DNA of 64,000 nucleotides, taken from positions 55,203 to 119,202 of the forward strand of contig CAVKNZ010000001.1 in the NCBI GenBank assembly GCA_963657885.1, written 5' to 3'. A program made the translations under genes and the position numbers. Below the pieces are notes generated by a model. The model was not told the origin of the DNA and searched no databases. It worked only from the letters and a program-made list of their open reading frames with translations. Shown piece by piece: positions 25,437 to 47,395 of the stretch. Every line of letters starts with the position of its first letter. Within the stretch, counting starts at the first letter, position 1. This DNA comes from Bacteroidaceae bacterium (lineage in GTDB: Bacteria; Bacillota_I; Bacilli_A; RFN20; CAG-826).

Positions 25437-26381
25437 ATGGCAAGAAACGAAATCAAATTAGATACCAAGTTCGGCGATAGTCTTTATGGTTATGCTTGGA
25501 CTATCACAAAACCTAAAGGCAATGTCATTATCGTAACTGGCATGGAAGAGTATGCGCTTAGATATGATGAATTTGCTAATTTCTTAAATAAACATGGCTA
25601 CGATGTATTTTGTATCGATCATTACGGACAAGGCTTAAATGCTAAAACCGAGGCAGAACGTGGAGTAGTTCCTTCATCATTCTTCTCAAAATCAGTTAAA
25701 AACATTGACCAAATTGTTGTCGCTTGTCGCGAATCGCTTTTACCAACAACGATTCTAGCTCACAGCATGGGTAGCTTCATGCTTCAAGATTACATTCAAA
25801 GATTTACAACTCACATCAACAAAATTGTGCTTGTTGGCACCAATGGACCAAACGCCAAAGTTACTTATAAATTTGGCAAAGCCATTGCTAAATTAACTCT
25901 TACAAAGAAGAACCGTAGCAAAAAACATTTCTTCATGGACAAGATGATTTTTGGAATGTATGGAAAACATTTTAAAGATGAAGGACCTTCAAGCTGGTTA
26001 TCGCTTGATCCTAAAAATGTTGAAAAATATAAACAAGACGAACAATGCGGATATGTTTCAACGCACGGCTTCTATTATGAATTTATGAAAGGCTGCAACC
26101 GTATCTATCAAAAGAAGTTCTTAAAGAAGATTCGTAAAGATATGAACATTCTCATCGTCTCAGGAACTGATGATCCAGTAGGTGCTTATGGAAAAGGACC
26201 TTATAAATTGTTCCAACTTTATAAAAAACTTGGACTCAACAATGTTGAACTAAAACTTTATGATGAACTTCGTCATGAATTATTAAATGAAGAAAATCGT
26301 CAAGAAGTTTACGAAGATATATTAGCCTTCTTAGATAAAGAAGTTTCTGAAGCTGAATTTTATTTCAATAACAAACATTAA
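25437..26381 (+). CDS. Alpha/beta-hydrolase (lysophospholipase / monoglyceride lipase-like)
   Basis: 314 aa. Nucleophile elbow ILAHSMGSF. Overall length and pattern (HG..E...RY) typical of lysophospholipase L2-like hydrolases. Confidence 0.7.
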   Translation: MARNEIKLDTKFGDSLYGYAWTITKPKGNVIIVTGMEEYALRYDEFANFLNKHGYDVFCIDHYGQGLNAKTEAERGVVPSSFFSKSVKNIDQIVVACRESLLPTTILAHSMGSFMLQDYIQRFTTHINKIVLVGTNGPNAKVTYKFGKAIAKLTLTKKNRSKKHFFMDKMIFGMYGKHFKDEGPSSWLSLDPKNVEKYKQDEQCGYVSTHGFYYEFMKGCNRIYQKKFLKKIRKDMNILIVSGTDDPVGAYGKGPYKLFQLYKKLGLNNVELKLYDELRHELLNEENRQEVYEDILAFLDKEVSEAEFYFNNKH

Positions 26382-28093: not shown

Positions 28094-28471
28094 GTGAAAA
28101 TTATAAACGTTTTTCTTTTATTTGCCGACTGTCTGAAGAAGATAAGCTTTCATGCGAATTAAGTTGAGTGACTTATTTCCAAAAATAAAAGAGACGAATC
28201 ATCTAGATAAAGACCTATTTAAATCATTATTGGAATAAAAAACAATTTTTTCTCCTATGAAAATGGAAGATTTTCTTGTCTATAAGCTATAAAAAGTAAA
28301 AATCTTCACGTAGTGAACTTATTTATTTTTCTTCTTTTCGCTTAAAAATGAAAAAATCGCCGAAAAACGAAACTAATAATTTCCTTGAAAACGCTTTCTC
28401 GCGCTTTTTTAATTGTAAGTGAACAAATAGTTTCGTCCATAATTATTGGTGTCGCTTGAAAGGAAACCATT

Positions 28472-31207
28472 ATGACTACTGGTGAAAAAATTAAGAAAAT
28501 TCGCACAGATAATAATTTATCTCAAGACGAATTTGCGAAAAAATTGGATGTTACACGTGTGGCTGTTAGCAAGTGGGAATTAGGCAAATCTTATCCTAGC
28601 ATTGCTAACCTTAAAAACATGTGTACCCTTTTTAACATCTCCTTCGATGATTTACTTGAAGAAACCAATCAAGAAGAACTTATGGGCAATGAAGATGGAA
28701 CAGAGCCTCAAGCAGATGATGAAAAGAAATCAAAACTTTCCACGAGAAAGAAAATTGACATTATTGCGTTTTCTATCATCGGCTTGGTTGCTGCGGTAGC
28801 AATTTCTTTAATTACCAGCGGACTAGTTTTAACATTTAACAAAACTACATCAGCTCCCGATAACGATGTTATACTCAGTCCAATTGAATCAATATATGTG
28901 AGTGAAAAGCCAACTTATATGACTTATTTAGTTGGTCAATCATTTAACAGCGATGGCTTAGTTGTTATGGCCGTTAGAGAAGATAACAACGAAGAAGCAA
29001 TTGAAGGATGGACAATTGATGTTCCTGAAACATTTGATGCAGAAACAAAGAATGGTGCTTATACAATTTCATACACTGATAAAGATAGTGAAAAAACATT
29101 CACGACAACTTTGGATGGCGTGAATGTTTATAGTTCAATGAGAGGCGTGTTTTCTCCAAATGGTTTAATTGCTATCAAAGGACCTATTCCTCAGAAAGCC
29201 GGTACAAAATTCAATTCATCTGATTTATTGTTCCATGTCACTTATGATGTTAATGGAGAAACAATTGAAGACACTCAATACACTTATCGCATGGGTGATC
29301 AAACGTCAAACAACTCATACGATGTTATTAAATTAGCTAAAGACACTACTTTAACGGATAGTGATACAACTGTTTCTATATATTATTCACAAGGAAAATC
29401 CGCGGAAATAAAAATTGATGTCTTTGAATCAATGTCTGTGAACTATAAGAAGAGCTCATTTGATGCTTCCAAAGATAAATTCAATTTTAGCGATGTTGAA
29501 CTGCTTGGCGAAAAAAGCGATGGCAGTAAAGTATCGGTTGACCCAAATGTCTATACTTGGGTTGATAACATTGAAGATGAACTAAGTGATGGGCAAGCGC
29601 TCATATATAATGGTGACCACACAATTGTTCCTAGCAGCGGCAATATATTTAATTTATCTTTTAAATTTAAGGTTACTAACGGTGTTAACATGGGTGATGT
29701 CGATCCTAATTTAAATGAAGATTTCTATTTCTCAGAAGCTGAAAATCTTGATTTTGTTGGAAACGTTGGCACATTAGTTCAAACTGGTGAAGACTACACA
29801 AAAGACTTTAAAGCTACAAATATTACTTTGGAGAAATTTAGAGCTGCAGCTTATTTAGGCTACACTGGTCGATATGAAGCCAGCGGAAAAGGCTTTGTTC
29901 TTGGCTTTGATGTTGCTACTCCTGAACGAAGCATGTCATTTACATTTAATGCTCCTGGAGGTGGATTTGGAGATTTAATTGTACGAGGCTCTACAAACGT
30001 AGAAGACACTAGCAACAAGTATCGTTCAAAAGATTTGATAGTTACTCAAGCTGCGAAGATTTATCTAAATAATGTTGAAGTAACATCTCAACTCGACCAA
30101 ACAGCAGTTTTCGAAGGTGTTAAAAATAGCGAACCAGATGAGCAAAATAGAACAGGTACTGTCGAAGGCTATGAACTCGAAGGTCGTTATAAATTTGTTA
30201 ACTGGACAGAAGTTAATTTAGGCAAACTCAATTTAAAACGTGGTAAAAATACAATTAAGTTTGTTCCTAATAACAACTATAGAAGTGGTCAATGGGACAC
30301 TGTTAAAGTTGATATCACCCCATATAAAGATGGTGGAAGCTCTAGCGATGAAATCTCATTAAGCAAAACTGAGTCAACACTTAATGTTGGTGAAAGTGAA
30401 ACGCTCATTTGCTATAAAAGCAAAACCGGAACAGTTAATTGGACCAGTTCTGACTCAACTGTCGCTAGTGTTGATCAAGATGGCAAAGTCACAGCGATTT
30501 CTTCAGGCAACGCAACTATTACCGCTACCTTCAATGGTAAATCAGTTTCATGCACGTATGAAATCATCGATCCTGACGAAAAGCCTGATTTAAACGATGA
30601 TACATATACATTTGAATGTGAAGATATGACTTTGACTGGAAAATCATCGTATCTAAAACAAACGGGCGATGATTATACAACTGATTATGTAGACAGCAAT
30701 TGTAGCTGGCCAGCATTCCATGCGGCGGCTTATCTAGGCTATACAGGCGATTACGCCGCGAGTGGTAGAGGATTTGTTCATAACTTTGATGACGCCAGTT
30801 CAACAATGAGTCAAACATTTACTCTCCCTAGCGGAGGCGATTGTGACCTTACTATTCGGGTTTCTTCCAACTATGGTGTTGAAGGTAGCACATATAAAAC
30901 CAATGCTTTAAGAGCAAATAAGATTGCTAAATACACTCTTAACGGAGTCGATATTACAAGCATGTTTACTGATGATATGGTGACCAAAAATATCACAAGC
31001 GACACTCCTGATGCTCAAAATAGAACAGGAACAGTTACGTATAGTCTTGATGGTAGATATCGTTTTGTCTATTGGACTGATATCACAATTAAAGGTGTCA
31101 GAATGAAAAAAGGCGAAAACACCATTGTCATCACTTCCAACAATGGCTCCCAAAGCGGTCACTGGGACTGCGTGTCACTCAATTTCAAGCCTTATAAATC
31201 GAATTAA
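28472..31207 (+). CDS. Membrane-anchored XRE-family HTH protein with a large extracellular region: two CBM6/CBM35-like beta-sandwich modules plus a Big_2 domain
   Basis: 911 aa. Residues 1-65 are a Cro/C1-type HTH (KIKKIRTDNNLSQDEFAKKLDVTRVAVSKWELGKSYPSIANLKNM). One TM helix near residue 100 (IIAFSIIGLVAAVAISLI). Two paralogous modules at about aa 425-620 and 700-911 share AAYLGYTG-Y-ASG-GFV-FD...P-GG--DL-R-S-N...QNRTGTV...GRY-FV-WT. Big_2-like segment VASVDQDGKVTAISSGNATITATF. Confidence 0.6.
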   Translation: MTTGEKIKKIRTDNNLSQDEFAKKLDVTRVAVSKWELGKSYPSIANLKNMCTLFNISFDDLLEETNQEELMGNEDGTEPQADDEKKSKLSTRKKIDIIAFSIIGLVAAVAISLITSGLVLTFNKTTSAPDNDVILSPIESIYVSEKPTYMTYLVGQSFNSDGLVVMAVREDNNEEAIEGWTIDVPETFDAETKNGAYTISYTDKDSEKTFTTTLDGVNVYSSMRGVFSPNGLIAIKGPIPQKAGTKFNSSDLLFHVTYDVNGETIEDTQYTYRMGDQTSNNSYDVIKLAKDTTLTDSDTTVSIYYSQGKSAEIKIDVFESMSVNYKKSSFDASKDKFNFSDVELLGEKSDGSKVSVDPNVYTWVDNIEDELSDGQALIYNGDHTIVPSSGNIFNLSFKFKVTNGVNMGDVDPNLNEDFYFSEAENLDFVGNVGTLVQTGEDYTKDFKATNITLEKFRAAAYLGYTGRYEASGKGFVLGFDVATPERSMSFTFNAPGGGFGDLIVRGSTNVEDTSNKYRSKDLIVTQAAKIYLNNVEVTSQLDQTAVFEGVKNSEPDEQNRTGTVEGYELEGRYKFVNWTEVNLGKLNLKRGKNTIKFVPNNNYRSGQWDTVKVDITPYKDGGSSSDEISLSKTESTLNVGESETLICYKSKTGTVNWTSSDSTVASVDQDGKVTAISSGNATITATFNGKSVSCTYEIIDPDEKPDLNDDTYTFECEDMTLTGKSSYLKQTGDDYTTDYVDSNCSWPAFHAAAYLGYTGDYAASGRGFVHNFDDASSTMSQTFTLPSGGDCDLTIRVSSNYGVEGSTYKTNALRANKIAKYTLNGVDITSMFTDDMVTKNITSDTPDAQNRTGTVTYSLDGRYRFVYWTDITIKGVRMKKGENTIVITSNNGSQSGHWDCVSLNFKPYKSN

Positions 31208-31209
31208 AT

Positions 31210-34200
31210 TTGAGGTCATTAAATATGAAAAAGTTAGGAAAAATAATTTGTTCAGTTAGCATAGCTCTACTTGCTGGAGTTATGATTACCGCCGATGTTT
31301 TAAGCGTTAAATATTATGCTTTTATCGATGAAGGCATAAATGGCTCAGGTGTCAACTATAGCAATGCATCCTCGGCCCTTGCTAAAGGTGATGCCTTTGT
31401 CAAAGAAATCATGGAAGAGGGCATAACAATGCTCAAAAACACTTCCGGAAAAGCTCCTTATGCCTACGATGAATCTAATCCTTCCGCGAATCGAAAAGCC
31501 AACGTCTTTGGTTGGTCGAGTGTTGATGCTGGCTTTTTGATTTCTGGATATGGATCCGGCATTTCTCGAATTCCTGAAAACAAACGTGTTCTTTTCTATG
31601 ATGGTTTTGATAAATATAACGATATCTATCCTAAGAAAAAGATTGAATACAACGCAAACTTAAAATCTTTCTATGAAGATTGGTGTAAATCTCGGGCAGT
31701 CACTGAATCTTTAGGTGGGAACGATAAGCTTTACACCAACTATAATCCAAAAGTTGATGTTTATACCTCTGATGAGAACAAAGTAAATGGAAAAACACTT
31801 TTAGAAGATGCAAAGGAATTTTCTGATAACGCAATTGTTGTCATCTCTCGTCAATCTGGCGAAGCGCAAGATTGTCCTCAGATGTATTCATACGTTGTTA
31901 ATGAAAAAGGTGGCGCGCCTACGCGTGTAGAACGAAGTTACCTCGCCTTAACTGATGAAGAATTGGATTTAATTGATATGGTGAAAAACAATTTCTCAAA
32001 TGTCACTATACTTTTAAACTGCACAAACATGGTTGAATGTGGCGCCTTTAGCGATGAAAAAATTCAAAACGTTTACTATATTGGTGTCACCGGACAATCA
32101 GGCGCAAGAGCGATTCCATCCGTTTTAACCGGTGATGTCAACCCTTCTGGAAGAATTACGGAAACATGTGTAACCGATCATAGCGAAAATCCATCATTTT
32201 ATAATTTTGGTCGTGTCTCATCTGCATCCACAACATATGTTGAAGATATTTATGTCGGTTATAAGTTTTTTGAAACCGCAGACAAGGAAGGCTATTGGGA
32301 TGGATACACTAATTCGGATAGCAAGAAGAGCAACGGAAAAACAGGCTATGATGGAATTGTTGAATACCCTTTTGGAAGTGGCTTAAGTTATACGACTTTC
32401 TCTTATGAATTTGCTACAGATAGTGAAGAAGACGCTATTTCTCCAACTAAAGGTAGCTCAATTGACTTAGATACAAAAATTAAAATAAATGTCAAAGTAA
32501 CTAACACTGGTTCAGTTAAAGGCAAAGATGTTGTAGAAATCTATTACACCGCTCCATACACCAAAGGTGGAATTGAAAAAGCATCAATTAACCTTATGGA
32601 TTTTGGAAAAACAAAATTACTTAAACCAGGTGAAAGCGAAATTTTAAGCTTTGAATTAGATCCATATTATATGGCTAGTTATGATTGCTATGATAAAAAT
32701 AGCAACGGCTTTAAGGGTTATGAACTTGAAGCTGGAAAATACGAAATTAAATTAATGAAAAATGCTCATACGTTATTGCTTGATGGCAATGATGGAGTCA
32801 TCGAATATAACGTTGATAGCACGATTAAAATCGACAAAGATGGTGTAACTGATAATGAAGTTAAAAATCGTTTTACCGGCAGCGATGCTTTCGATGGAAC
32901 AAGCATTGATAGAGATGATCAAACATTATATCTATCAAGAAGCGACTTCAAAGGAACAATAAAAAAAGAAACAGTAGCTAACTACACGAAAGCTGGAACT
33001 GTTAAAGCGACAAGATCTTATACTTTGCTTCCTACATTTAATCAAGATAATGGTTTATATCTTTATACTGATATAGATGGCAACAAGATTACAGATAGTA
33101 ACTTACTACATTCACCAACTAGCGATAAAGTTAAAGCTAATACTGAACTTATGAAAGAACTTGGCAATGACTACAACAATGAAAAATGGAATTTGCTTTT
33201 AAATCAATTAACTTATACTGACGCGACAAATCTCATCGTTATGGGCGGCTATTCGACAATCGAAGCCGAAAGTGTAGGCAAAATTTGGATGCGAGATAAC
33301 GATGGTCCAATGGGACTTACTAGATCAAATGCTTCTGTCACCGAAACTAGCCAATGGACCTGGTTCCCGATGGCGGGTTTAATCGGCAACAGCTGGAATA
33401 AAGAGCTAGCTAAAAACTATGGAAAGACCATCGCTAATGAAGCTCAAGTTACTGGCGTAAATGGCTGGTACGCGCCTGGATGCAATATTCGTCGCTCTCC
33501 TTTCGGAGGAAGAAATAACGAATATTATAGCGAAGATCCTATGCTTTCAGGCTATATGTCCGCCTATACAGTTAAAGGCGCTCTATCTGGAAGACTTACA
33601 ACTTATGTTAAGCACTTCGCATTAAATGAATGTGAGACTAATAGAGGTGGTATCAAAACATGGACCACTGAACAGGCCTTAAGAGAAATATATCTTAGAT
33701 CCTTTGAATTAACTGTTAAGGTTGGAAAAACAAATGGTATCATGTCGGCGTTTAACTCAGTTGGAGGAACTACCGCTCGTCAAAACGGTGCTTTATTAAC
33801 TTATGTTTTGCGTGACGAATGGGGTTTTAAAGGAACTGTTGTCACTGACTGGATGGGTGGCGCTGGCGATGCAAAACAAGGCACGATGTCTGGCAATAAT
33901 TTATGGCTCAATGGTTCTCAACAAAACAATCACAACTTTGGCAGCGATTGGATGAATGATGTGCAGATGGCAAATGATATTAGAGAATCTTGCAAATCTA
34001 TTTTATACATGGTTTGCAATACACAAATCCAAACAGATGAGGTGCCAGTTATTGTTGATGTTGTTAGAAACAAACCTCTTTGGATTATGTCTGTTGTTGG
34101 AATTAACTTAGCATTATTTGATGGAATATTGCTATTAACATACTTTGCTTTCATTCGTAAAGGAAAAGAAGGCGATTCATCTACTAATCCAGTAGAAGAG

Positions 34201-34218
34201 GAGACTAAAGGAGAATAA
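31210..34218 (+). CDS. Glycoside hydrolase family 3 beta-glucosidase with circularly permuted domain order (alpha/beta sandwich domain, then Fn3-like, then catalytic TIM-barrel domain), N-terminal signal and C-terminal TM anchor
   Basis: 1002 aa. The acid/base-containing GH3 C-domain comes first (VVISRQSGEAQD), then the Fn3-like FGSGLSYTTFSYEF, then the GH3 N-terminal domain with nucleophile motif GTVVTDWMGG (KHFALNE..., SED). C-terminal hydrophobic helix LWIMSVVGINLALFDGILLLTYFAFIRKGK. Confidence 0.8.
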   Translation: MRSLNMKKLGKIICSVSIALLAGVMITADVLSVKYYAFIDEGINGSGVNYSNASSALAKGDAFVKEIMEEGITMLKNTSGKAPYAYDESNPSANRKANVFGWSSVDAGFLISGYGSGISRIPENKRVLFYDGFDKYNDIYPKKKIEYNANLKSFYEDWCKSRAVTESLGGNDKLYTNYNPKVDVYTSDENKVNGKTLLEDAKEFSDNAIVVISRQSGEAQDCPQMYSYVVNEKGGAPTRVERSYLALTDEELDLIDMVKNNFSNVTILLNCTNMVECGAFSDEKIQNVYYIGVTGQSGARAIPSVLTGDVNPSGRITETCVTDHSENPSFYNFGRVSSASTTYVEDIYVGYKFFETADKEGYWDGYTNSDSKKSNGKTGYDGIVEYPFGSGLSYTTFSYEFATDSEEDAISPTKGSSIDLDTKIKINVKVTNTGSVKGKDVVEIYYTAPYTKGGIEKASINLMDFGKTKLLKPGESEILSFELDPYYMASYDCYDKNSNGFKGYELEAGKYEIKLMKNAHTLLLDGNDGVIEYNVDSTIKIDKDGVTDNEVKNRFTGSDAFDGTSIDRDDQTLYLSRSDFKGTIKKETVANYTKAGTVKATRSYTLLPTFNQDNGLYLYTDIDGNKITDSNLLHSPTSDKVKANTELMKELGNDYNNEKWNLLLNQLTYTDATNLIVMGGYSTIEAESVGKIWMRDNDGPMGLTRSNASVTETSQWTWFPMAGLIGNSWNKELAKNYGKTIANEAQVTGVNGWYAPGCNIRRSPFGGRNNEYYSEDPMLSGYMSAYTVKGALSGRLTTYVKHFALNECETNRGGIKTWTTEQALREIYLRSFELTVKVGKTNGIMSAFNSVGGTTARQNGALLTYVLRDEWGFKGTVVTDWMGGAGDAKQGTMSGNNLWLNGSQQNNHNFGSDWMNDVQMANDIRESCKSILYMVCNTQIQTDEVPVIVDVVRNKPLWIMSVVGINLALFDGILLLTYFAFIRKGKEGDSSTNPVEEETKGE

Positions 34219-34219
34219 T

Positions 34220-36142
34220 ATGAAGAATTATTTAAAATTTCCTATTTTAATTGCATCTGTGTTAACTACTTTTAATGCATTATCTCTTGTTAACAGCAAT
34301 AGCAAAGATGCATATAGAACAGATGCATTAAGTTATAAGACACTTCAAACAATTGAAAACAAAGCAGTTATTGAATTTGAAAATGAAAATCATAATTTGC
34401 CTGAAGGTGAATCTGCGAGTGTTTCTTATAGTGGATCAGCAGTAAGTTATAAAAATAATGGACAATACACTAATGCACGTATATTTGCGGCGCGATTTTA
34501 TACTGGAAACTATTCATGCTCCCCTATAAACGAGGAAGAAAAAACAGTATTTTTAAATGGCGAAGAAAGAACTAGAACCGTTAATACTACCGGAGGATAC
34601 GTACTCTATTTTAATGGAGGCTCTAATTCTAAAGTTTCTGTGACTTATTCATCGTCAGAAGAGAGATATGCTGATTTATATGTTCGCGTATCTACTAACA
34701 AAACTTCAAATGTCACTGCTGGTGCCCCGGCTTCGTATTCTTTATCTTTAAAAAATATGATGACAATAAATCTCAATGATGAAGATTTAACTATTAATGA
34801 TAAAGCTACAGTTTTTGGGCGAAAATATCAGGATCATTCGCTTGATGATGAATTAGGATCTAAAAATGGCACGGCTGATAATTTCGCTTTAGAAAAGGGC
34901 GCCGATGGTAATTGGGATACAAAGAACACTGTTTTAAACATGTATGGTCGTTATATACCTCAAGATTGGCAAACTGTATTAGTTGGAAAAGTTTTAATAA
35001 AAAAAGGCAATAATTCGTTTGTCTATTCCGCTATAAATGGCGATTACAGCGGTCAACTTGATTGCATGATTTTAGATTATGATAAATACGACAATAAAGA
35101 TGTTTATGAATTCGAAAACGCAGACGATTTAGGAAACGCTAAGAAAATCGCTAGTTATTCCGATGGCAAAAATGATGCTTTAATTCAAGATTTCGCAACT
35201 TACAACAAAGATTATGCATGCTCAAATCATGACTTTGTTAAATATTCTTACAATGGCAACACAATAACCTTTAATAATGTTAAAAAGAATAATTTTACCA
35301 ACCCTCATTTGGTAATGAGAGTTTCTTCATTGCTTGTAAATCAAGGAACTTATGTAACTACTAGCGTTCAACCAAGTAAATATTTAGAAATCAAAATTAA
35401 TGATAACGCCATAACAATCGATGATAGTTTATATATCGAAGGTCGTAATGACTCTGCAAATAAAGATCCAGATGGTATTTCCCACGGCATACAAGGATCA
35501 TTAAATTGGAGCGATTATTATGATTCTGGTAGGGGACCTCGTTATTTATATTTGATATGGAGAACAATTGATTTTGGTCCTATCACTTTAAATGGTGACG
35601 TTGATGGCGTGGGCTCAAATAAGTTTGAATTTACGACCATTAATGGAGCGGCCAATACTGAATACATTGGCTTTGACTATTTCTCTATTGTAGATGTTGA
35701 AGATGATCGTTACGCTGCAACAGCATTTGCTAATACATATGTCGGTTTATTTGCAAATACATGCAAGCCAGATGGCAACACAAATGTTTCTACATTAAAG
35801 ACAGTTTGGACATCTATGAGAAGCGACTACAATAATTTAACTACTGCATCTCAAACCATTATTTTAAATAGCTCAGCAAGTAGCGTCTCTCTTGATCCTA
35901 TCGAAAGATTATTGGAACGTTATGACTATATCGGTGGTAAATATAACACTCAACTTGTCGATGATGGAAACTGGAACTTCTTTGGACGTACTGTAAGTGC
36001 AACAAGTTCATATCCATTGCCATATATGTCGATGACAAATAACAACTATCTCTTGTTATTGATAATTATTATTGGATCAACGCTATCTATAACTGCGTTT
36101 ATTGTTATCTATAAAAAAAGTAAATATAAAAGACAAAAATAA
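34220..36142 (+). CDS. Secreted, C-terminally membrane-anchored surface protein of unknown function (possible glycan-binding beta-sandwich protein)
   Basis: 640 aa. Signal peptide MKNYLKFPILIASVLTTFNALSLVNS. S/T/N-rich body. C-terminal TM plus basic tail LLLLIIIIGSTLSITAFIVIYKKSKYKRQK. Translationally coupled to neighbours. Confidence 0.4.
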   Translation: MKNYLKFPILIASVLTTFNALSLVNSNSKDAYRTDALSYKTLQTIENKAVIEFENENHNLPEGESASVSYSGSAVSYKNNGQYTNARIFAARFYTGNYSCSPINEEEKTVFLNGEERTRTVNTTGGYVLYFNGGSNSKVSVTYSSSEERYADLYVRVSTNKTSNVTAGAPASYSLSLKNMMTINLNDEDLTINDKATVFGRKYQDHSLDDELGSKNGTADNFALEKGADGNWDTKNTVLNMYGRYIPQDWQTVLVGKVLIKKGNNSFVYSAINGDYSGQLDCMILDYDKYDNKDVYEFENADDLGNAKKIASYSDGKNDALIQDFATYNKDYACSNHDFVKYSYNGNTITFNNVKKNNFTNPHLVMRVSSLLVNQGTYVTTSVQPSKYLEIKINDNAITIDDSLYIEGRNDSANKDPDGISHGIQGSLNWSDYYDSGRGPRYLYLIWRTIDFGPITLNGDVDGVGSNKFEFTTINGAANTEYIGFDYFSIVDVEDDRYAATAFANTYVGLFANTCKPDGNTNVSTLKTVWTSMRSDYNNLTTASQTIILNSSASSVSLDPIERLLERYDYIGGKYNTQLVDDGNWNFFGRTVSATSSYPLPYMSMTNNNYLLLLIIIIGSTLSITAFIVIYKKSKYKRQK

Positions 36143-36145
36143 AAT

Positions 36146-37180
36146 ATGATTCTCCTTTCCTTTGTTGTTCCCTCTTTTAATGCTGAAAAGTATTTAGATA
36201 AAGTTATTCCTTCTCTTTTAGTAGGAGGAAACGATATTGAAATCATCATTGTTAACGATGGTTCTAAAGATAAAACTTTAGAAAAAGCTAATCAGTATAA
36301 AGAGAAATGTCCTGATATTGTTAAAGTCATCGATAAAGAAAATGGGGGACATGGGTCAACCATCAATGAAGCTATAAAAGTAGCTCAAGGTTTGTATTTT
36401 AAATGTGTAGACGCGGATGATTGGTTAGACAAGGATGCGCTTTTAAAATTGTTAGCAAAGATTAAATATCATCACTCTGTAAATAATTTGCCTGATTTAT
36501 ATCTAACTAACTTTGTCTATGAAAATGTTTCATCAAATCAAAGCCATGTTTTTTCATTGATGGATTATTTTCCTAAAGATGAAAGTGTTATTGGTTGGGA
36601 TAAAGTAAAGAATTTTAAGTGCAAAGACTTCTTTATGATGCATAGTCTTGTTTATCGGTTAGATATTCTTAAAAGATGTAAATTGCATCTACTTGAACAT
36701 ACATTTTATGTTGATAACATCTTTGTTTATGAGCCTTTATATTTTGTTAAAAGTATTTGCTATTTAAATATTGATTTATATCGATATTACATTGGTCGAA
36801 TTGATCAATCAGTATCTGTAAGTAGCATGGATAAGAACTACGCACATCAATTCCGCGTCTTTAAAGAAACAATGCTTTATTATTCATTGGATGATTTAAA
36901 GAAACTTAATAAAAACCACTTTAAGCATATGATACATGCACTATTTTCTATATTTGTGTTAACAACTTATTATTCAACGATTGGTGACACAAAAAAGAAA
37001 AGAAAAGAATTAAATGAGTTGCTTATAGAATTCAAAACTAAGAATAAAGATTTATATAGATTTTTAACGAGAAAGACATTGATTGTTCTTTATTATTATC
37101 AACCTTTCTTTATAAAGAAATTTATGGCTAACTTTGTTCATAATTTATTAAACAAAAAGACAGAATGGAACGCCTCATGA
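36146..37180 (+). CDS. Glycosyltransferase family 2 (GT-A fold)
   Basis: 344 aa. LSFVVPSFNAEKYLDKVIPSLLVGGNDIEIIIVNDGSKDKT and the DAD motif (KCVDADDWL) are diagnostic of GT2. Confidence 0.8.
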   Translation: MILLSFVVPSFNAEKYLDKVIPSLLVGGNDIEIIIVNDGSKDKTLEKANQYKEKCPDIVKVIDKENGGHGSTINEAIKVAQGLYFKCVDADDWLDKDALLKLLAKIKYHHSVNNLPDLYLTNFVYENVSSNQSHVFSLMDYFPKDESVIGWDKVKNFKCKDFFMMHSLVYRLDILKRCKLHLLEHTFYVDNIFVYEPLYFVKSICYLNIDLYRYYIGRIDQSVSVSSMDKNYAHQFRVFKETMLYYSLDDLKKLNKNHFKHMIHALFSIFVLTTYYSTIGDTKKKRKELNELLIEFKTKNKDLYRFLTRKTLIVLYYYQPFFIKKFMANFVHNLLNKKTEWNAS

Positions 37181-39621
37181 AACATAAAGAAATAGTTGAT
37201 TCACTAACATTAGAAGAGAAAGCTAGTTTAACAACTGGCAAAAACTTTTGGGAATCAAAAGATATTTTAGAAAAAGGCATTCCTTCTTTATTTTTCTCTG
37301 ATGGACCGCATGGTATTAGAAAGCAAGCCGCGGCCGCTGATCACTTAGGATTAAACGAATCACTTAAGGCAACATGCTTTCCGCCGGCCGCGACGATGGC
37401 CTCTTCTTGGGATATTTCATTAGGCGAAGTAATGGGTAAGGCCTTAGCTCAAGAAGCACTGGCTCAAAAAGTTAATGTTTTGTTAGGACCAGGACTAAAT
37501 ATAAAAAGAAATCCTCGATGTGGACGTAACTTTGAATATTTTAGCGAAGATCCTTGTCTTTCTGGCAAGATGGCTGCCTCTTACGTAAAAGGCATTCAGA
37601 GTTTAGGCATCTCTGCTTGCTTAAAACATTTTGCTTGCAATAACCAAGAAGAAAAAAGAATGACTATAGATACGATTGTCGATGAAAGAGCGTTAAGAGA
37701 AATATATTTAACTGGATTTGAGATAGCCATTAAAGAATCTCATCCAAGAACAATTATGTCTTCTTACAATATGCTTAACGGAGTTCACACGAATGAAAAT
37801 CCTCATCTTATGAAGATTCTTCGCGATGAATGGCAATATGAAGGCGTTCTTGTTACCGATTGGGGCGGAGAAAACGATAGAGTTAAAGGTTTTAATTTAG
37901 GTAACGAAATAGAGATGCCTGGTTCAGGGAAAGATGGTGTCAACGAAATTGTCAATGCTTATAAGGAAGGAAAAATAAGTAAAGAAGTTTTAGATAACAA
38001 CACTGATAGATTGCTTGACTTAATAATTGAGACCTCTAAGCCGTTTAAAGGTGAAAAGAGTTATTCTCCAGAATATGAAGAACATCATAAGCTCGCCATT
38101 AGATGCGCGGAAGAATCAATGGTACTTCTTAAAAATGAAAATAACATCTTACCTCTTAAGAGCGAAACTAAAGTTTGCCTATTAGGTGATTTCGCAGGTA
38201 GAATGCGTTATCAAGGCGCGGGAAGCTCGGTAGTTAACGCTTATAAGTTAGAAACTCCTTTAGAAGTAATTAAGGATTATAACTTAGATTTTATAGGCTA
38301 TGAAAAAGCCTTTCACCGCTTCGGTAGAAAAAGTAAAAAACTCTTAAATAAAGCAGTTAATTTAGCTAAAAAGGCTGACGTTGCTCTTGTATATTTGGGC
38401 CTAGATGAAGCGATAGAAGCCGAAGGATTAGATCGAAATAATATCAAAATTAATGAAAATCAAATTATCTTATTAAAGGCTTTGAAAAAAGAAGGCATAA
38501 AAGTAGTTAGTATTCTTCATGCTGGAAGTGTTGTGGAAATGGGCTGGGCAGATGATTGCGATGCCTTATTAAATGCTTATTTACCTGGACAAGGTGGCGC
38601 ACGCGCTGAACTCAACATCCTTTGTGGCTTAGTCAATCCTAGTGGCAAATTAGCGGAAACCTATCCTTTTAGCTATGAAGACACTCCGACGCATAAATAT
38701 TTCCCGGGAAAAGAGGTAAACACTCAATATCGCGACTCCATTTTTGTTGGATATCGGTACTTCTCTACTATTGGCAAGAAAGTTCGTTTTCCTTTTGGTT
38801 ATGGGCTTTCTTATAGCAATTTCTCTTACAACAGTTTAAACATTACTCCTAAAGGTGTTTCTTTTAAAATCAAAAATATCTCTAATGTTGATGGCAAAGA
38901 AATTGCCCAACTATATATTTCCAAAAAAGAATCAACTGTTTTTAGAGTGAAGATAGAATTGAAAGGCTTTATTAAGGTTTTCCTTAAAGCCGGTGAAGAA
39001 AAAGAAGTATTTATTCCATTTGATGAATATACATTTAGATATTGGAACTTACTTCTAAATAGATGGTCAGTTGAGAAAGGCAGATATGAAATATTAGTGG
39101 CCTCCTCCTCGGAAGATATCCGCCTTTCTTCTGAATACACTATCGAAGGAGAAAATCTAGATAGAGATTCTTTTATAGTTCAAGAAGAGATACCTAACTA
39201 TTTCTTTGGAAAGATTGATGATATATCTACTGATGAATTTGAAAAAATATATCTTTCTAAAGTTCCTTCAGAAAAATACTCTTTTATTAAAAAGAATCGT
39301 TTAGTTGTTCATTACAATACGACGATAAATGAACTTAAATATGCAAAAGGCTTTGCTGGTAGAGCCTTCTCTGCGCTTATTAAATTTGCTATTAAGTTCC
39401 TTCGCATTTTTGGTGATTACAAAACTTCAAACACTCTAATAATGGGTGTATTGCACGCCCCTATGAGAAGTTTAGCGAAGATGACTGGTGGAGCAATAAC
39501 AACTAAACAGTTAGACGGACTAATTATGATGTTTAATGGTCACTTCTTTAAAGGACTTCATTACTTTAATAAAAATAAAGAACGTAAAACGAAAAAAGGG
39601 AAGAAAAATGGAAGAGATTGA
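37165..39621 (+). CDS. Glycoside hydrolase family 3 beta-glucosidase/beta-hexosaminidase, canonical domain order, cytoplasmic (no signal peptide)
   Basis: 818 aa. N-terminal catalytic domain with GVLVTDWGG (nucleophile Asp). C-domain with LGLDEAIEAEGLDR. Fn3-like FGYGLSYSNFSY. Extra basic C-terminal tail of about 120 aa. Alternative start ATG at 37177. Confidence 0.9.
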   Translation: MERLMKHKEIVDSLTLEEKASLTTGKNFWESKDILEKGIPSLFFSDGPHGIRKQAAAADHLGLNESLKATCFPPAATMASSWDISLGEVMGKALAQEALAQKVNVLLGPGLNIKRNPRCGRNFEYFSEDPCLSGKMAASYVKGIQSLGISACLKHFACNNQEEKRMTIDTIVDERALREIYLTGFEIAIKESHPRTIMSSYNMLNGVHTNENPHLMKILRDEWQYEGVLVTDWGGENDRVKGFNLGNEIEMPGSGKDGVNEIVNAYKEGKISKEVLDNNTDRLLDLIIETSKPFKGEKSYSPEYEEHHKLAIRCAEESMVLLKNENNILPLKSETKVCLLGDFAGRMRYQGAGSSVVNAYKLETPLEVIKDYNLDFIGYEKAFHRFGRKSKKLLNKAVNLAKKADVALVYLGLDEAIEAEGLDRNNIKINENQIILLKALKKEGIKVVSILHAGSVVEMGWADDCDALLNAYLPGQGGARAELNILCGLVNPSGKLAETYPFSYEDTPTHKYFPGKEVNTQYRDSIFVGYRYFSTIGKKVRFPFGYGLSYSNFSYNSLNITPKGVSFKIKNISNVDGKEIAQLYISKKESTVFRVKIELKGFIKVFLKAGEEKEVFIPFDEYTFRYWNLLLNRWSVEKGRYEILVASSSEDIRLSSEYTIEGENLDRDSFIVQEEIPNYFFGKIDDISTDEFEKIYLSKVPSEKYSFIKKNRLVVHYNTTINELKYAKGFAGRAFSALIKFAIKFLRIFGDYKTSNTLIMGVLHAPMRSLAKMTGGAITTKQLDGLIMMFNGHFFKGLHYFNKNKERKTKKGKKNGRD

Positions 39622-40648
39622 AATTAAACCTTATTCAAATAATAAGCTTGTTGCATTAGTTCAGCGAATTGCTCGTTGGTGGCTTGCTCATTGGTATTCT
39701 TTTAGCGATAAACATCCAAAATTTGCCAGTCTTTTATATAAAATAAGCTTCTTTTTCATCTTTTCAATGGCGGTTACTTTATGGCAATTTCTCATCATGG
39801 TTTTCTTGCCATATGCCTTTGAAGGTATTTGGAATGTACCATTTTGTTTTCCACGTATTTCATTAGGACTTAAAGATGCTTTAGGTAATGATTTATATTT
39901 TGGGATTTTTAATGAGCCTGCGCAGGTGATGGTTGGCAACACTTTATCGCAAGCTTATACATCTAACGATGTCGATGTTTTATTAGCTCAAGGAGGAGTT
40001 GTTAAAGTTGGCGGACTTGGTAATTTCATTGCTTTTGAAATTGCTGTTTTTACCGCCCAATGCATTAACTTTCCGCTTCAAAGAAACATCACTTATAAAT
40101 CTAAAGGCAACCCTTATTTTCAAGCCTTTATGTATTTTGTCGGGTGGATCTTTGTTTCTTTATTCACTAATGCCTTATGGGGAATAGCTAATCCATTATT
40201 ATTATCTTGGCAAGTAAATGATGTCGTCATCGGTTTATTAAAGACTGTTCTTACCGGCGGTGTATCCATGTTTATTTTCTTCTTTATCTTTTTGCTTATT
40301 TTCCCCGACTTAAATAAAAGTGCGGAGAAAGCAGCGAAAAGATATAAAAAAGCCGAAAATAAAAATGCTGATGAAAAGAAGAAAGCTGAGCTATTTAAAA
40401 AGATGGTGGATGCGACTAATAAAGCTAAGATTGAAAATGCTCGTTTGAAGGCTATTCAATGCGAATCGCTATATAATGGAAAAGCAATTTCTTATCATTC
40501 TTATTTAGAAAAAGCGAAGAATCCAAAGCTTGCTGATGAAGAAGTAAATGAATTAAATGATATTGTTTCCAAGAAATATGAAGAAGCTATTAAAGCTAAA
40601 GAGAATATGCTTTTAGCAAAAAGCGAATATGAAAGAATTAAAAGATAA
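39608..40648 (+). CDS. Hypothetical membrane protein (about 5 TM) with a K/E-rich C-terminal coiled-coil tail
   Basis: Start taken as ATG 39608 (MEEIEIKPYS), overlapping the GH3 stop by 14 nt; the ORF track gives 39536. Hydrophobic core. The last 100 aa, KAAKRYKKAENKNADEKKKAELFKKMVD..., are predicted coiled-coil. Confidence 0.45.
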   Translation: MEEIEIKPYSNNKLVALVQRIARWWLAHWYSFSDKHPKFASLLYKISFFFIFSMAVTLWQFLIMVFLPYAFEGIWNVPFCFPRISLGLKDALGNDLYFGIFNEPAQVMVGNTLSQAYTSNDVDVLLAQGGVVKVGGLGNFIAFEIAVFTAQCINFPLQRNITYKSKGNPYFQAFMYFVGWIFVSLFTNALWGIANPLLLSWQVNDVVIGLLKTVLTGGVSMFIFFFIFLLIFPDLNKSAEKAAKRYKKAENKNADEKKKAELFKKMVDATNKAKIENARLKAIQCESLYNGKAISYHSYLEKAKNPKLADEEVNELNDIVSKKYEEAIKAKENMLLAKSEYERIKR

Positions 40649-41765
40649 TAAATATGATTTCTTAATTGTTGGGGCGGGGCTATTTGGCTCAACTGTCGCT
40701 AATAGACTAACTAGTTTAGGAAAAAAAGTTTTAGTAATTGATAAAAATCCCTTTGTTGGAGGAAATATTTATACTGAACAAATCGAAGGAATTCATGTTC
40801 ATAAATTCGGCGCGCACATTTTTCATACGTCTAATAAAAAAATATGGGATTATGTGAATTCATTTATGGACTTTATTCCTTTTGTTAATTCACCAATTGC
40901 TAATTATAAAGGCGAATTATACAACCTTCCTTTCAATATGAATACGTTCATAAAGATATTTCCTGAAGCTAAATCAATAGATGAAGTTAAGCAATGCATT
41001 GAGCAAGAAAAAAAGAAAGCAAACATAACATCTATCAATAATTTAGAAGATCAAGCCATTTCAATGGTGGGAACTTCTATTTATGAAATATTAATTAAAG
41101 GCTATACCGAAAAGCAATGGGGAAAATCAGCGAAAGATTTGCCTGTATCTATCATTAAAAGAATCCCTTTAAGATTCACATTTGATAACAATTATTTTAA
41201 TGATACTTATCAAGGAATACCGAAAGATGGTTATACAAACTTTATCAAAGCTTTACTTAATGGAAGTGATGTTAAACTTAATGCGAATTTCTTTAAAAAT
41301 GAAGACGAGTATTTAAAGATTGCTAATAATGTTATCTATAGTGGAAGGATTGATGAATTCTTTGATTATAAATTTGGAAAACTAGAATATCGAAGTGTTG
41401 ATTTTAAAACCAGTGTTCTTGATAGAGAAGTTTTTCAAGGTGTCGCGGTGATGAATTTCACTGATAGAGAAACTCCATATACACGCATTATTGAGCACAA
41501 GTTTTTTGATCGCTTTAACAATTCAAAAAAGACAGTTATATCTTATGAATATCCTTCATTAGATAATGAAAATAATAATCCATGTTATCCATTAAATGAT
41601 AAAAAGAACAATGATATTTATTCGCTTTATTTAGCTGAATCTAAAAAGCTTAAAAATGTTTACTTCGGAGGAAGATTAGCATTATATAAATATTTTGATA
41701 TGGATGATGTCATTGAAGAAGCTTTTAAACTTATAGACGAACTAATAAAAAGCAAAGTAGTTTGA
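40629..41765 (+). CDS. glf: UDP-galactopyranose mutase (flavoenzyme; galactofuranose precursor)
   Basis: 378 aa. YDFLIVGAGLFGSTVANRL FAD motif. GGNIYTE ... HVHKFGAHIFHT ... YSGRIDEFFDYKFGKLEYRS are conserved Glf signatures. Confidence 0.9.
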   Translation: MKELKDNKYDFLIVGAGLFGSTVANRLTSLGKKVLVIDKNPFVGGNIYTEQIEGIHVHKFGAHIFHTSNKKIWDYVNSFMDFIPFVNSPIANYKGELYNLPFNMNTFIKIFPEAKSIDEVKQCIEQEKKKANITSINNLEDQAISMVGTSIYEILIKGYTEKQWGKSAKDLPVSIIKRIPLRFTFDNNYFNDTYQGIPKDGYTNFIKALLNGSDVKLNANFFKNEDEYLKIANNVIYSGRIDEFFDYKFGKLEYRSVDFKTSVLDREVFQGVAVMNFTDRETPYTRIIEHKFFDRFNNSKKTVISYEYPSLDNENNNPCYPLNDKKNNDIYSLYLAESKKLKNVYFGGRLALYKYFDMDDVIEEAFKLIDELIKSKVV

Positions 41766-41788: not shown

Positions 41789-41925
41789 ATTGGTGCATTT
41801 TGGTGCATTTTTTGGTGCAAATAACAGCATTTAATCTTACATCGCAATACAAAAATAACGATAATATCGAAGTAATTTAGCATATATATTTATTGGTGCA
41901 CTTTGGTGCATTTTTTGGTGTAAAT
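41789..41925. repeat. Two copies about 100 bp apart of a 33-34 bp element, each made of three tandem TGGTGCA heptamers spaced 10-13 bp, in the promoter region of the downstream AlbA_2 gene
   Basis: Copy 1 at 41789-41822: TTGGTGCATTTTGGTGCATTTTTTGGTGCAAAT. Copy 2 at 41892-41925: TTGGTGCACTTTGGTGCATTTTTTGGTGTAAAT. Gene ATG at 41969. Confidence 0.7.
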
Positions 41926-45611: not shown

Positions 45612-45615
45612 TTAT

Positions 45616-47357: not shown

Positions 47358-47395
47358 CTAGCTACCTCCCACGCGGCACTTTTTATTTGATGCGA

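What the first reader, a model, noticed from the sequence alone, without database searches (positions are those of the whole stretch)
28472..31207. One-component transmembrane regulator: N-terminal XRE-HTH, single TM, and a 800-aa extracellular region with duplicated CBM6/35-like modules and a Big_2 domain, directly upstream of the GH3 / surface-protein genes
A Cro/C1 HTH is fused through one TM helix to an extracellular glycan-binding-type ectodomain. This looks like a direct sensor-regulator, in the ToxR/RodZ style of topology but with CBM-like sensors. It heads the GH3 / surface-protein / GT2 / GH3 / glf run. It may couple extracellular glycan recognition to transcription without a two-component system.
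Basis: partly seen in the sequence, partly recalled or inferred. Interest (0 to 1): 0.65.

Follow-up and report, generated by a model that had tools for sequence, protein, structure and literature searches.

The report
Membrane-tethered regulator with sugar-binding sensor modules
The first gene of a sugar-degrading gene cluster in an uncultured gut bacterium fuses a DNA-binding switch, through one membrane helix, to two outward-facing carbohydrate-binding modules, so it probably lets the cell read an external glycan directly without a separate signalling relay.

Summary
ORF 28472..31207 (+) encodes 911 aa made of these parts:
- a canonical Cro/C1 (XRE) HTH;
- a 30-aa acidic/basic linker;
- one TM helix, N-terminus inside;
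- a stalk of Ig-like domains, one of them Big_3;
- two 44%-identical ~205-aa modules separated by a Big_2 domain.

A high-confidence model of the module (pLDDT 94) matches almost only CBM35/CBM6 structures. A family profile hits only CBM35 chains in the PDB.

The module family is tiny: 43 hits among 1.84 billion representatives. Every other member scanned is a secreted or anchored protein without an HTH.

The gene is the first cistron of a tight operon. It is always followed by a membrane-anchored, circularly permuted GH3 and by a protein carrying two more copies of the module.

Orthologues that lack the HTH have a LytTR two-component system directly upstream instead. This apparent regulator swap is the best available evidence that the HTH controls the cluster. 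The HTH is also the most conserved domain.

Ligand, DNA site and signalling mechanism are inferred, not shown.

Verdict: a real, new variant of a known kind, the transmembrane one-component regulators. Its nearest functional analogue is the CBM-bearing anti-sigma factor RsgI.

The parts
28369..28383 (+). 15-bp near-palindrome GAAACTAATAATTTC just upstream of the -35; candidate operator for the HTH
   Evidence: It lies in an invariant block in six orthologous promoters whose flanks diverge. It is the only GAAA[CT]N5[AG]TTTC in the 64-kb window and the only zero-mismatch hit. It is absent from HTH-less loci. The function is inferred.
28385..28413 (+). Putative promoter: -35 TTGAAA (28385-28390), 17-nt spacer, -10 TTTAAT (28408-28413). 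A cre-like box TGAAAACGCTTTCT (28386-28399) overlaps the -35.
   Evidence: The -35 and most of the -10 and cre-like box are invariant across orthologous loci. The cre consensus matches with 1 mismatch. A similar box occurs in 4 of 5 independent promoter lineages, including HTH-less ones, against a background of 0.11 hits per 200 bp. The simple promoter scan did not list it; the assignment comes from the alignment.
28430..28435 (+). Conserved GTTTCG half-site downstream of the -10. Orthologues have a second copy 18-20 nt further on.
   Evidence: Invariant in alignment A4. GAAAC/GTTTC pentamers number 3-4 per 200 bp against 0.3 expected in the close orthologues, p about 0.003 each, though these are not independent.
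28472..31207 (+). Whole gene, 911 aa: HTH, linker, TM, Ig stalk, CBM35-like module, Big_2, CBM35-like module
28472..28666 (+). Cytoplasmic Cro/C1 (XRE) helix-turn-helix, residues 1-65
   Evidence: HTH_3 E 4.7e-14. The nearest PDB sequences are DNA-binding XRE regulators: 9k3w, PezA, C.BclI, DdrOC. It is the most conserved domain among orthologues, 72-81%.
28667..28753 (+). Short charged linker, residues 66-94, poorly conserved
   Evidence: 24-41% identity among orthologues. Basic KKSKLSTRKK lies next to the TM.
28754..28837 (+). Single transmembrane helix, residues 95-122, N-terminus inside
   Evidence: It is the only segment with hydropathy above 1.6, and the flanks follow the positive-inside rule. 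AF2 predicts a helix at 102-119.
28838..29704 (+). Extracellular beta-rich stalk of Ig-like domains, residues 123-411; Big_3 at 151-212
   Evidence: Big_3 E 5e-6. The model is all beta strand, with pLDDT 80-90 over residues 230-410. The full-length model matches strings of Ig domains.
29705..30331 (+). CBM35-like module 1, residues 412-620
   Evidence: 44% identical to module 2. Matches the module profile at 1e-79 to 1e-100.
30350..30544 (+). Big_2 Ig-like spacer domain, residues 627-691
   Evidence: Pfam Big_2 E 7.8e-12. pLDDT is 80-90 here.
30584..31201 (+). CBM35-like module 2, residues 705-910
   Evidence: AF2 model pLDDT 94.4, pTM 0.90. The top Foldseek PDB hits are CBM35/CBM6. Profile hits to CBM35 chains have E 1.3e-4 to 1.7e-4.
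31210..34218 (+). Partner enzyme: circularly permuted GH3 (beta-glucosidase-like) with TM helices at both ends. It always sits immediately downstream.
   Evidence: Pfam domain order is GH3_C, Fn3-like, GH3_N. TM helices at 12-30 and 959-977. Synteny holds in every locus that has downstream DNA, at 65-86% identity. The closest PDB relatives are beta-glucosidases.
34220..36142 (+). Second module-bearing surface protein: signal peptide, two divergent CBM35-like modules (about 34364-35092 and 35096-35677), C-terminal TM anchor
   Evidence: The A3 profile gives E 1e-35 and 3e-25. The orthologue P0026 was found with the A2 profile, which holds no unk640-type sequences. TM at 612-630. Conserved downstream of the GH3.
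36146..41765 (+). Rest of the operon: GT2, cytoplasmic GH3, 370-aa membrane protein, UDP-galactopyranose mutase. GT2 and glf are not present in all orthologous loci.
41895..41912 (+). Terminator-like hairpin followed by a T run, after glf

Best explanation
The protein is a single-pass transmembrane one-component transcription regulator.

Shown by computation:
- The N-terminal 65 residues are a canonical XRE/Cro-C1 DNA-binding domain in the cytoplasm.
- A 30-residue linker and one TM helix tether it to the membrane.
- Outside, an Ig-domain stalk holds up two enlarged CBM35-type beta-jelly-roll modules.
- The gene is the first cistron of an operon. Its invariant core is this protein, a membrane-anchored permuted GH3 exo-glycosidase, and a second anchored protein with two more modules.

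Inferred:
- The modules bind an extracellular glycan, probably the polymer or glycoside that the surface GH3 trims.
- Because the ligand is multivalent and four modules sit on two anchored proteins, binding clusters or dimerises the receptor. This raises the local concentration of the weakly self-associating HTH. The HTH can then occupy the 15-bp palindrome at about -45 of its own promoter, and possibly the GTTTCG half-sites downstream. It most likely activates the operon, giving positive autoregulation.
- A cre-like box over the -35 adds catabolite repression by a separate factor of CcpA type.

The design does in one polypeptide what the HTH-less orthologous clusters appear to do with a LytTR response regulator and kinase pair.
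For: Architecture.

CBM35 fold:
- Module model pLDDT 94.4.
- The Foldseek PDB top 50 hits are almost all CBM35/CBM6, for example 3zm8 at E 3e-8, 2vzp, 2w1w and 2w47, with target TM-scores of about 0.7.
- The A3 profile hits only CBM35 chains at E 1e-4.
- Distant family members repeatedly give weak hits to PF14683 'CBM-like'.

Extracellular nature of the module: all the other family members examined carry a signal peptide, a lipobox or a TM anchor, and none has an HTH.

HTH is functional:
- Its nearest PDB relatives are DNA-binding XRE regulators.
- It is the most conserved domain, 72-81% against 62-67% overall, and 62% against 41% in the distant orthologue.

Link to the cluster:
- The gene is directly followed by the permuted GH3 in all 11 loci that have downstream sequence.
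- In both HTH-less lineages (L018/L019 and L006) a LytTR response regulator and an HATPase_c_5 kinase sit immediately upstream.
- No such pair occurs in the window or in the available flanks (up to 10 kb) of the HTH-bearing loci.
- The L018 promoter has 9-bp direct repeats with a 12-nt spacer in place of the palindrome.

Promoter footprint and palindrome.

The cre-like box is shared with HTH-less loci, so it is not the HTH's own site.

Class precedent: 50,302 transmembrane transcription regulators are known, 56% of them single-pass and 9% with HTH_3 (PMC10269533).
Against: - No experiment exists; the organism is an uncultured MAG lineage.
- Pfam CBM_35 is below its cutoff (17.1 against 28 bits). 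The module is about 75 residues larger than a normal CBM35.
- The Asn that precedes the conserved Asp in the two CBM35 chains aligned over that stretch is H, Q or N here (alignments), so ligand binding is unproven and the ligand is unknown.
- HTH-less orthologues show that the ectodomain has a job that needs no HTH.
- GAAAC/GTTTC enrichment is significant only in six closely related, non-independent promoters. It is not significant within 200 bp in the distant HTH-bearing loci L011, L012 and L013.
- The promoter scan did not pick up the proposed promoter.
- The sign of regulation and the clustering mechanism are guesses made by analogy.
- The operon also contains GT2 and glf, which fit surface-glycan synthesis better than catabolism.
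Confidence: 0.6

Rival explanations
1. The protein is mainly a surface glycan-capture or scaffold partner of the anchored GH3, comparable to a substrate-binding protein. Its HTH is not a ligand-responsive switch. It is either a constitutive autoregulator or a cytoplasmic protein-interaction domain in the manner of RodZ.
For: The conserved core is the ectodomain plus the GH3. Orthologues P0014 and P0007 keep the TM, stalk, modules and synteny but have no HTH. The GH3 is more conserved than the module protein. No signal-transducing element is recognisable between the CBMs and the HTH.
Against: The HTH is the most conserved part of the protein. It is of the ordinary DNA-binding XRE type, and no HTH_25 or DUF4115 hit appears. 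Loci without the HTH have a dedicated two-component system in the same place, which implies the HTH fills a regulatory slot.
Confidence: 0.2
2. Signalling works by regulated proteolysis. Ligand binding, or mechanical pull on the ectodomain, triggers site-1 and site-2 cleavage that releases a soluble HTH fragment. That fragment then acts as a repressor or activator. This is how RsgI anti-sigma factors and some ToxR-type regulators are processed.
For: RsgI sensors with CBM ectodomains use autoproteolysis followed by RseP cleavage (PMC10328401, PMC12203970). The linker is short and poorly conserved, and the HTH alone would be a complete XRE domain.
Against: No SEAL/RsgI-type or other autoproteolytic domain is detected. 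No protease gene lies in the operon. A free 90-residue XRE domain would lack a dimerisation domain.
Confidence: 0.1
3. The modules monitor the cell's own galactofuranose-containing surface glycan rather than a nutrient. The operon would then be an envelope synthesis and remodelling unit under feedback control.
For: GT2, UDP-galactopyranose mutase and a membrane protein are co-transcribed in the window and in L008 and L016. All extracellular components are membrane-anchored. B. subtilis RsgI gives a precedent for an envelope-sensing single-pass receptor (PMC9732909).
Against: GT2 and glf are missing from the orthologous operon in L001, and glf is placed differently in L012, whereas the module protein, GH3 and unk640 are constant. 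Both GH3s are beta-glucosidase/xylosidase-like rather than envelope enzymes. The cre-like box suggests catabolite control.
Confidence: 0.1

Closest known systems
Transmembrane transcription regulators (TTRs) as surveyed by Demey et al. 2023 (PMC10269533), e.g. ToxR, CadC, TcpP
   Same: A cytoplasmic DNA-binding domain, one TM helix and an extracytoplasmic sensor in a single polypeptide. The presumed action on DNA is from the membrane. Single-pass is the commonest form (56%).
   Different: ToxR and CadC use an OmpR-type winged helix, whereas this protein has an XRE HTH. Their sensors bind small molecules, protons or partner proteins. In the census of 50,302 TTRs, carbohydrate-binding domains were almost absent: CBM9_1 three times and RicinB_lectin_2 four times, with no CBM35, CBM6, Big_2 or Big_3 entries in the held tables.
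BcrR of Enterococcus faecalis (membrane-bound one-component bacitracin sensor)
   Same: A Firmicute transmembrane one-component regulator that acts on the adjacent operon (PMC3968067). From my own knowledge, it has an XRE-type N-terminal HTH and activates from inverted repeats upstream of the -35.
   Different: From my own knowledge, BcrR has four TM helices and no large ectodomain, and it senses a lipid-II-cycle antibiotic in the membrane. It is also transcribed separately from its target operon.
RsgI anti-sigma-I factors of Clostridium thermocellum
   Same: Single-pass membrane proteins whose extracellular CBM, PA14 or GH-like modules sense polysaccharides and switch on glycoside-hydrolase genes. 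This is the nearest functional analogue.
   Different: RsgI has an N-terminal anti-sigma domain that holds SigI. It signals by autoproteolysis and then RseP cleavage (PMC10328401, PMC12203970). Here the cytoplasmic domain binds DNA itself, no sigma factor gene lies next to it, and no RsgI or SEAL domain is detected.
CAZy family CBM35 (and sister family CBM6)
   Same: Beta-jelly-roll fold. A motif like 'Y-[ST]-G-x-G-F-V' before the central strand. An N-terminal E-x-E and a C-terminal conserved Asp. All top structural and profile matches belong to these families.
   Different: The module is about 205 residues rather than about 130, with roughly 75 residues of insertions. It falls below the Pfam CBM_35 threshold. 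The Asn two residues before the conserved Asp is mostly His. The family is extremely small, with 18 representatives at E<1e-10 among 1.84 billion.
RodZ
   Same: N-terminal XRE-like HTH, one TM helix, and an extracytoplasmic C-terminal region.
   Different: The RodZ hallmark domains HTH_25 and DUF4115 are absent. The context is a glycoside-hydrolase operon, not cell-shape genes.

Membership tests
Transmembrane transcription regulator (TTR; definition of PMC10269533: a predicted DNA-binding domain plus at least one TM region) | Recognised DNA-binding domain | tested here: met
   HTH_3 52.6 bits against a cutoff of 23; HTH_19 36.6 against 30.2.
Transmembrane transcription regulator (TTR; definition of PMC10269533: a predicted DNA-binding domain plus at least one TM region) | At least one transmembrane region, with the DNA-binding domain on the cytoplasmic side | tested here: met
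   One hydrophobic 28-residue segment at 95-122, with basic residues on the HTH side. AF2 predicts a helix at 102-119. No dedicated TM predictor was available.
Transmembrane transcription regulator (TTR; definition of PMC10269533: a predicted DNA-binding domain plus at least one TM region) | Regulates transcription while membrane-bound | not testable with these tools
   Only indirect support: the conserved HTH, the promoter footprint, and replacement by a two-component system in HTH-less loci.
XRE / Cro-C1 HTH family | Match to the HTH_3 model over its full length, with DNA-binding relatives | tested here: met
   Profile positions 1-55 of 55 matched. PDB relatives are the PbsX-family regulator 9k3w (E 3e-7), PezA, C.BclI and DdrOC.
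CBM35 (CAZy) / Pfam CBM_35 | Sequence match above the Pfam gathering score | tested here: not met
   17.1 bits against a cutoff of 28, covering residues 759-808 only.
CBM35 (CAZy) / Pfam CBM_35 | Beta-jelly-roll fold superposable on solved CBM35 structures | tested here: met
   Model pLDDT 94.4. Foldseek probability is 1.00 for 3zm8, 2vzp, 2w1w, 2w47, 2w3j, 2w46 and 4qb1, with target TM-scores of 0.62-0.74 for the isolated CBM35 chains. The A3 profile hits 3zm8, 5x7g and 2vzp at E 1.3e-4 to 1.7e-4.
CBM35 (CAZy) / Pfam CBM_35 | Conserved binding-site and calcium-site residues | tested here: inconclusive
   E13, E15 and D197 are nearly invariant and D197 aligns with the CBM35 Asp. The CBM35 Asn two residues before it aligns with H/Q/N here (alignments, and the sequences). 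Model coordinates could not be inspected. The roles of these residues are taken from my own knowledge of CBM6/35.
CBM35 (CAZy) / Pfam CBM_35 | Demonstrated carbohydrate binding | not testable with these tools
   Needs protein and glycan arrays or ITC.
RodZ | HTH_25 domain and C-terminal DUF4115 | tested here: not met
   Neither family appears in the Pfam scan at E up to 1.
RsgI anti-sigma factors | N-terminal anti-sigma-I domain, juxtamembrane autoproteolytic (SEAL) domain, adjacent sigI gene | tested here: not met
   No such Pfam or NCBIfam hit. No sigma-factor domain was found among the adjacent genes that were scanned, and the remaining ORFs are listed.
ToxR/CadC family | OmpR-type winged-helix (Trans_reg_C) DNA-binding domain | tested here: not met
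   Only Cro/C1-type HTH models match.
Bacterial Ig-like domains Big_2 and Big_3 | Pfam match above the gathering score | tested here: met
   Big_2 45.4 against 22.8; Big_3 27.0 against 21.2.

The most novel reading that the evidence does not exclude
This would be the first direct transmembrane transcription factor that uses CBM-type lectin modules as its sensor, and it was caught next to its evolutionary alternative. In sister lineages the same anchored CBM protein lacks the HTH and sits behind an AgrC-like kinase and a LytTR regulator. This suggests the CBM protein there acts as a co-sensor for an intramembrane-sensing kinase. Fusing an XRE HTH to its cytoplasmic tail would then have collapsed a three-protein relay into one polypeptide. 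Signalling would be by polysaccharide-driven clustering of a single-pass receptor, a receptor-tyrosine-kinase-like logic in a bacterium.
Probability: 0.3. Interest if true: 0.7.

Novelty: new variant of a known kind. Interest (0 to 1): 0.5.

Why it matters
How single-pass transmembrane regulators pass information across the membrane is poorly understood. About 57% of the 50,302 catalogued TTRs have no recognisable sensor domain (PMC10269533).

This protein has a sensor with an interpretable fold, a multivalent candidate ligand class, and its probable target promoter right next to it. It also has natural control loci in which the HTH is replaced by a two-component system. Together these make a compact and testable model for ligand-induced clustering as a signalling mechanism.

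It would also be a one-gene glycan biosensor part. In addition it defines a previously unnamed, enlarged subfamily of CBM35-like modules found in gut Bacilli.

Tried and rejected
- **Full-length AF2 model.** With 9 sequences it was poor (pLDDT 56). It was used only for secondary structure and the Ig-string match.
- **Word-indexed homologue searches.** The module profiles returned only a handful of proteins. The exhaustive HMMER search was more informative.
- **Phage tail-fibre idea for P0008/P0009.** These 906-aa module-bearing proteins gave no PHROG hit for any of seven ORFs of L007 and no match in 50,697 phage records. The idea was dropped.
- **Prophage repressor idea.** It was raised by the partial NCBIfam RstR hit, which is far below cutoff. 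It was rejected because chromosomal synteny is conserved across MAGs.
- **RNA elements.** Rfam and tRNA scans of the window found nothing.
- **cre-like box as the HTH's operator.** Rejected because the identical 14-mer occurs at the promoter of an HTH-less locus.
- **GAAAC/GTTTC enrichment.** It is not significant in the distant HTH-bearing loci L011, L012 and L013 within 200 bp, so it is kept only as a lead. The tandem pattern GTTTCG-N8-20-GTTTCG is absent from the window itself.
- **Source annotation.** Cluster look-up gave no source names for these proteins.
- **Literature.** A search for HTH + CBM35 + transmembrane regulator found nothing relevant.
Full report

Yes. The ORF runs from 28472 to 31207 on the + strand and encodes 911 aa.

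Pfam places HTH_3 at residues 7-61 (E 4.7e-14), Big_3 at 151-212 and Big_2 at 627-691. All three are above their curated cutoffs. CBM_35 (759-808) and PF14683 'CBM-like' (820-903) give only sub-threshold hits. NCBIfam shows partial matches to many XRE repressors and antitoxins over residues 1-70.

A single hydrophobic segment lies at residues 95-122, and KKSKLSTRKK is on its N-terminal side. The HTH is therefore cytoplasmic and residues 123-911 are outside. The AF2 model has a helix at 102-119.

The two C-terminal modules (412-620 and 705-910) are 44% identical, E 1e-57.

**2. What are the modules?**

A 31-sequence alignment of module copies (A3) gave a confident model of module 2, with pLDDT 94.4 and pTM 0.90. 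A Foldseek search of the PDB returned almost exclusively CBM35 and CBM6 structures:
- 3zm8, a GH26-CBM35, at E 3e-8;
- 2vzp/2vzr, the CsxA CBM35;
- 2w1w, 2w47 and 2wz8, the C. thermocellum CBM35s;
- 2w3j, 2w46 and 4qb1;
- the CBM6 entries 2cdp and 1uxz.

Target-normalised TM-scores are about 0.6-0.74.

The A3 profile, searched against PDB sequences, independently finds only CBM35-containing chains at significant or near-significant E-values. These are 3zm8 at 1.3e-4, 5x7g at 1.5e-4 and 2vzp at 1.7e-4, followed by 2w3j, 2w47 and 2w1w. Distant family members repeatedly give weak PF14683 'CBM-like' hits.

The module is about 75 residues longer than a normal CBM35, and the extra length is in insertions. 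E13, E15 and D197 are nearly invariant. In the HMMER alignments the CBM35 'N-x-D' lines up with '(H/Q/N)-W-D' of the module. I read this as a retained calcium site and a polar residue kept at the ligand-site position. That reading rests on my own knowledge of CBM6/35 and was not checked on coordinates.

The rest of the ectodomain is a string of Ig-like domains. Evidence is the Big_3 and Big_2 hits, a well-modelled beta region at 230-410, and full-length model matches to NUP210, DSCAM, S-layer proteins and invasin.

**3. How widespread is it?**

The full-length protein has only eight other relatives among 5.8 billion clustered sequences. Four are full-length orthologues at 62-67% identity.

An exhaustive HMMER search with the module profile against 1.84 billion representatives found 43 proteins at E<1e-3 and 18 at E<1e-10. 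I scanned the closer relatives individually (P0014-P0027). Each starts with a signal peptide, a lipobox or a membrane anchor, or is a fragment or a protein of unknown type. None has an HTH.

Genome hits are all uncultured Bacilli or Erysipelotrichaceae MAGs, several of them from gut samples.

The module is therefore an extracellular domain of a very small family, and only one clade has fused it to a DNA-binding domain.

**4. Genomic context**

The gene is followed 2 bp later by a GH3 whose domains are circularly permuted (GH3_C, then Fn3-like, then GH3_N). This GH3 has TM helices at both ends. Its closest solved relatives are beta-glucosidases, including other permuted ones.

Next comes a 640-aa protein with a signal peptide, two divergent copies of the same CBM35-like module and a C-terminal anchor. 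After that come GT2, a cytoplasmic GH3, a 370-aa membrane protein and UDP-galactopyranose mutase, and then a terminator-like hairpin at 41895.

A tblastn comparison shows that the trio of module protein, permuted GH3 and double-module protein is kept wherever the contig extends far enough downstream. This holds for L001, L008, L012, L015, L016 and L018/L019; the pair of module protein and GH3 is also seen in L013, L014, L017 and L006. GT2 and glf come and go.

**5. Evidence that the HTH is the cluster's regulator**

(a) The HTH is the most conserved domain, at 72-81% identity against 62-67% overall. In the 41%-identical orthologue P0006 it is 62% identical. The linker is the least conserved part, at 24-41%.

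(b) Its nearest solved relatives are ordinary DNA-binding XRE proteins. RodZ-type domains are absent.

(c) Two lineages have orthologues without the HTH: P0014 in L018/L019, and P0018 plus P0007 in L006. They keep the TM helix, stalk, modules and GH3 synteny. In both lineages a LytTR response regulator and an AgrC-like HATPase_c_5 kinase sit immediately upstream. Homologues of that pair are absent from the 64-kb window and from the flanks (up to 10 kb) of the HTH-bearing loci. The intergenic space before P0014 is 127 bp, so a hidden HTH exon is excluded. This looks like a regulator swap.

(d) The promoter regions differ accordingly. Six HTH-bearing loci share an invariant block. It holds GAAAC-N5-ATTTC, a -35 TTGAAA, and a -10 TTTAAT after 17 nt, followed by one or two GTTTCG sites. 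The 15-bp palindrome is unique in the window. The HTH-less L018 promoter instead has CTAAAATTA-N12-CTAAAATTG direct repeats. From my own knowledge, that is the spacing typical of LytTR sites.

(e) A cre-like box (TGAAAACGCTTTCT, 28386-28399) overlaps the -35. The same or a similar box is present in four of five independent promoter lineages, including the HTH-less ones, against a background of 0.11 hits per 200 bp. It is therefore probably the site of a shared catabolite regulator and not of the HTH.

**6. Likely mechanism**

Shown: the domain order, the topology, the CBM35 fold, the operon structure, and the conservation patterns.

Inferred:
- The modules bind an extracellular glycan related to the substrate of the surface GH3.
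- Multivalent binding clusters the single-pass receptor, possibly together with the double-module partner protein. The tethered XRE domains can then bind the palindrome centred near -45 cooperatively.
- The effect is most likely activation. This is by analogy with BcrR and ToxR-type activators that bind upstream of the -35, with positive autoregulation because the regulator is the first cistron.
- Catabolite repression is layered on top through the cre-like box.

Release by regulated proteolysis, as in RsgI (PMC10328401, PMC12203970), cannot be excluded, but no matching domain is present.

**7. Comparison with known systems**

As a class it is a transmembrane one-component regulator (TTR). The census in PMC10269533 found 50,302 TTRs, 56% single-pass and 9% with HTH_3. 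Small HTH-TM proteins similar to residues 1-162 are common on Firmicute plasmids.

What is unusual is the sensor. In that census CBM-type domains are almost absent: CBM9_1 three times and RicinB_lectin_2 four times. No paper in the library combines HTH, CBM35 and a transmembrane regulator.

The closest functional analogue is RsgI, which senses polysaccharides with extracellular CBMs. RsgI, however, is an anti-sigma factor with proteolytic signalling. The protein is not RodZ, RsgI or ToxR/CadC by their defining domains.

**8. Verdict**

It is a new variant of a known kind. The natural HTH-versus-two-component comparison and the tiny, unnamed CBM35-like family add interest. The lack of any experimental handle on ligand or DNA site, and the conceptual precedent of RsgI and glycan-sensing hybrid systems, keep the score moderate. 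Interest 0.5; confidence in the regulator-sensor reading about 0.6.

Noticed in passing
window 34220-36142 (+): The 640-aa 'surface protein' with no Pfam hit is a paralogous carrier of the same rare module. It has a signal peptide, two divergent CBM35-like copies (E 1e-35 and 3e-25) and a C-terminal TM anchor. It is conserved downstream of the GH3 in orthologous loci.
   Followed up: yes
window 31210-34218 (+): This GH3 has a circularly permuted domain order (GH3_C, Fn3-like, GH3_N) and hydrophobic helices at both termini, so it is probably an extracellular enzyme anchored at both ends. It is 65-86% identical across loci, more conserved than the module protein.
   Followed up: partly
window 28386-28399 (+); also L018 7967-7980 and L006 about 6414-6427: A cre-like catabolite box lies at the cluster promoter. 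The identical 14-mer occurs in an HTH-less locus, which suggests shared CcpA-type control of this cluster in several lineages.
   Followed up: partly
L018 7898-7927 (and the identical L019 sequence): 9-bp direct repeats CTAAAATTA-N12-CTAAAATTG lie upstream of the HTH-less orthologue, directly after a LytTR regulator and kinase pair. L006 has a similar pair of imperfect repeats (CCAAAATAA and CTAAAAACC).
   Followed up: partly
window 26378-28093 (-): A divergently transcribed 571-aa protein has an N-terminal anchor, Big_2 Ig-like domains and a C-terminal multi-TM VanZ domain. This is an unusual fusion of a surface Ig array to VanZ.
   Followed up: no
window 41969-43393 (+): A Schlafen AlbA_2 + HATPase_c_4 protein sits right after the operon terminator. 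A related HATPase_c_4 gene lies near the cluster in L018, and a Schlafen-like match lies in L012.
   Followed up: no
window 43404-48016 (-): Four consecutive ORFs (735, 255, 325 and 206 aa) each have an N-terminal hydrophobic segment and no Pfam match. They may form a surface-protein or secretion-related operon of unknown function.
   Followed up: no
L007 7783-10503 (P0008), also P0009 and P0015: Proteins of about 900 aa without a signal peptide carry one copy of the module after a helical N-terminal region. They sit next to an ORF of more than 1,700 aa. No PHROG or phage-genome match was found, so their nature is unknown.
   Followed up: partly
L011 (contig end) and L014 (contig end), same MAG UBA6865: P0006 (692 aa, one module) is probably truncated by the contig end. 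L014 starts at a contig end with a module followed by the GH3, so the two contigs are probably adjacent and the real protein has two modules without a Big_2 spacer (compare P0012).
   Followed up: partly
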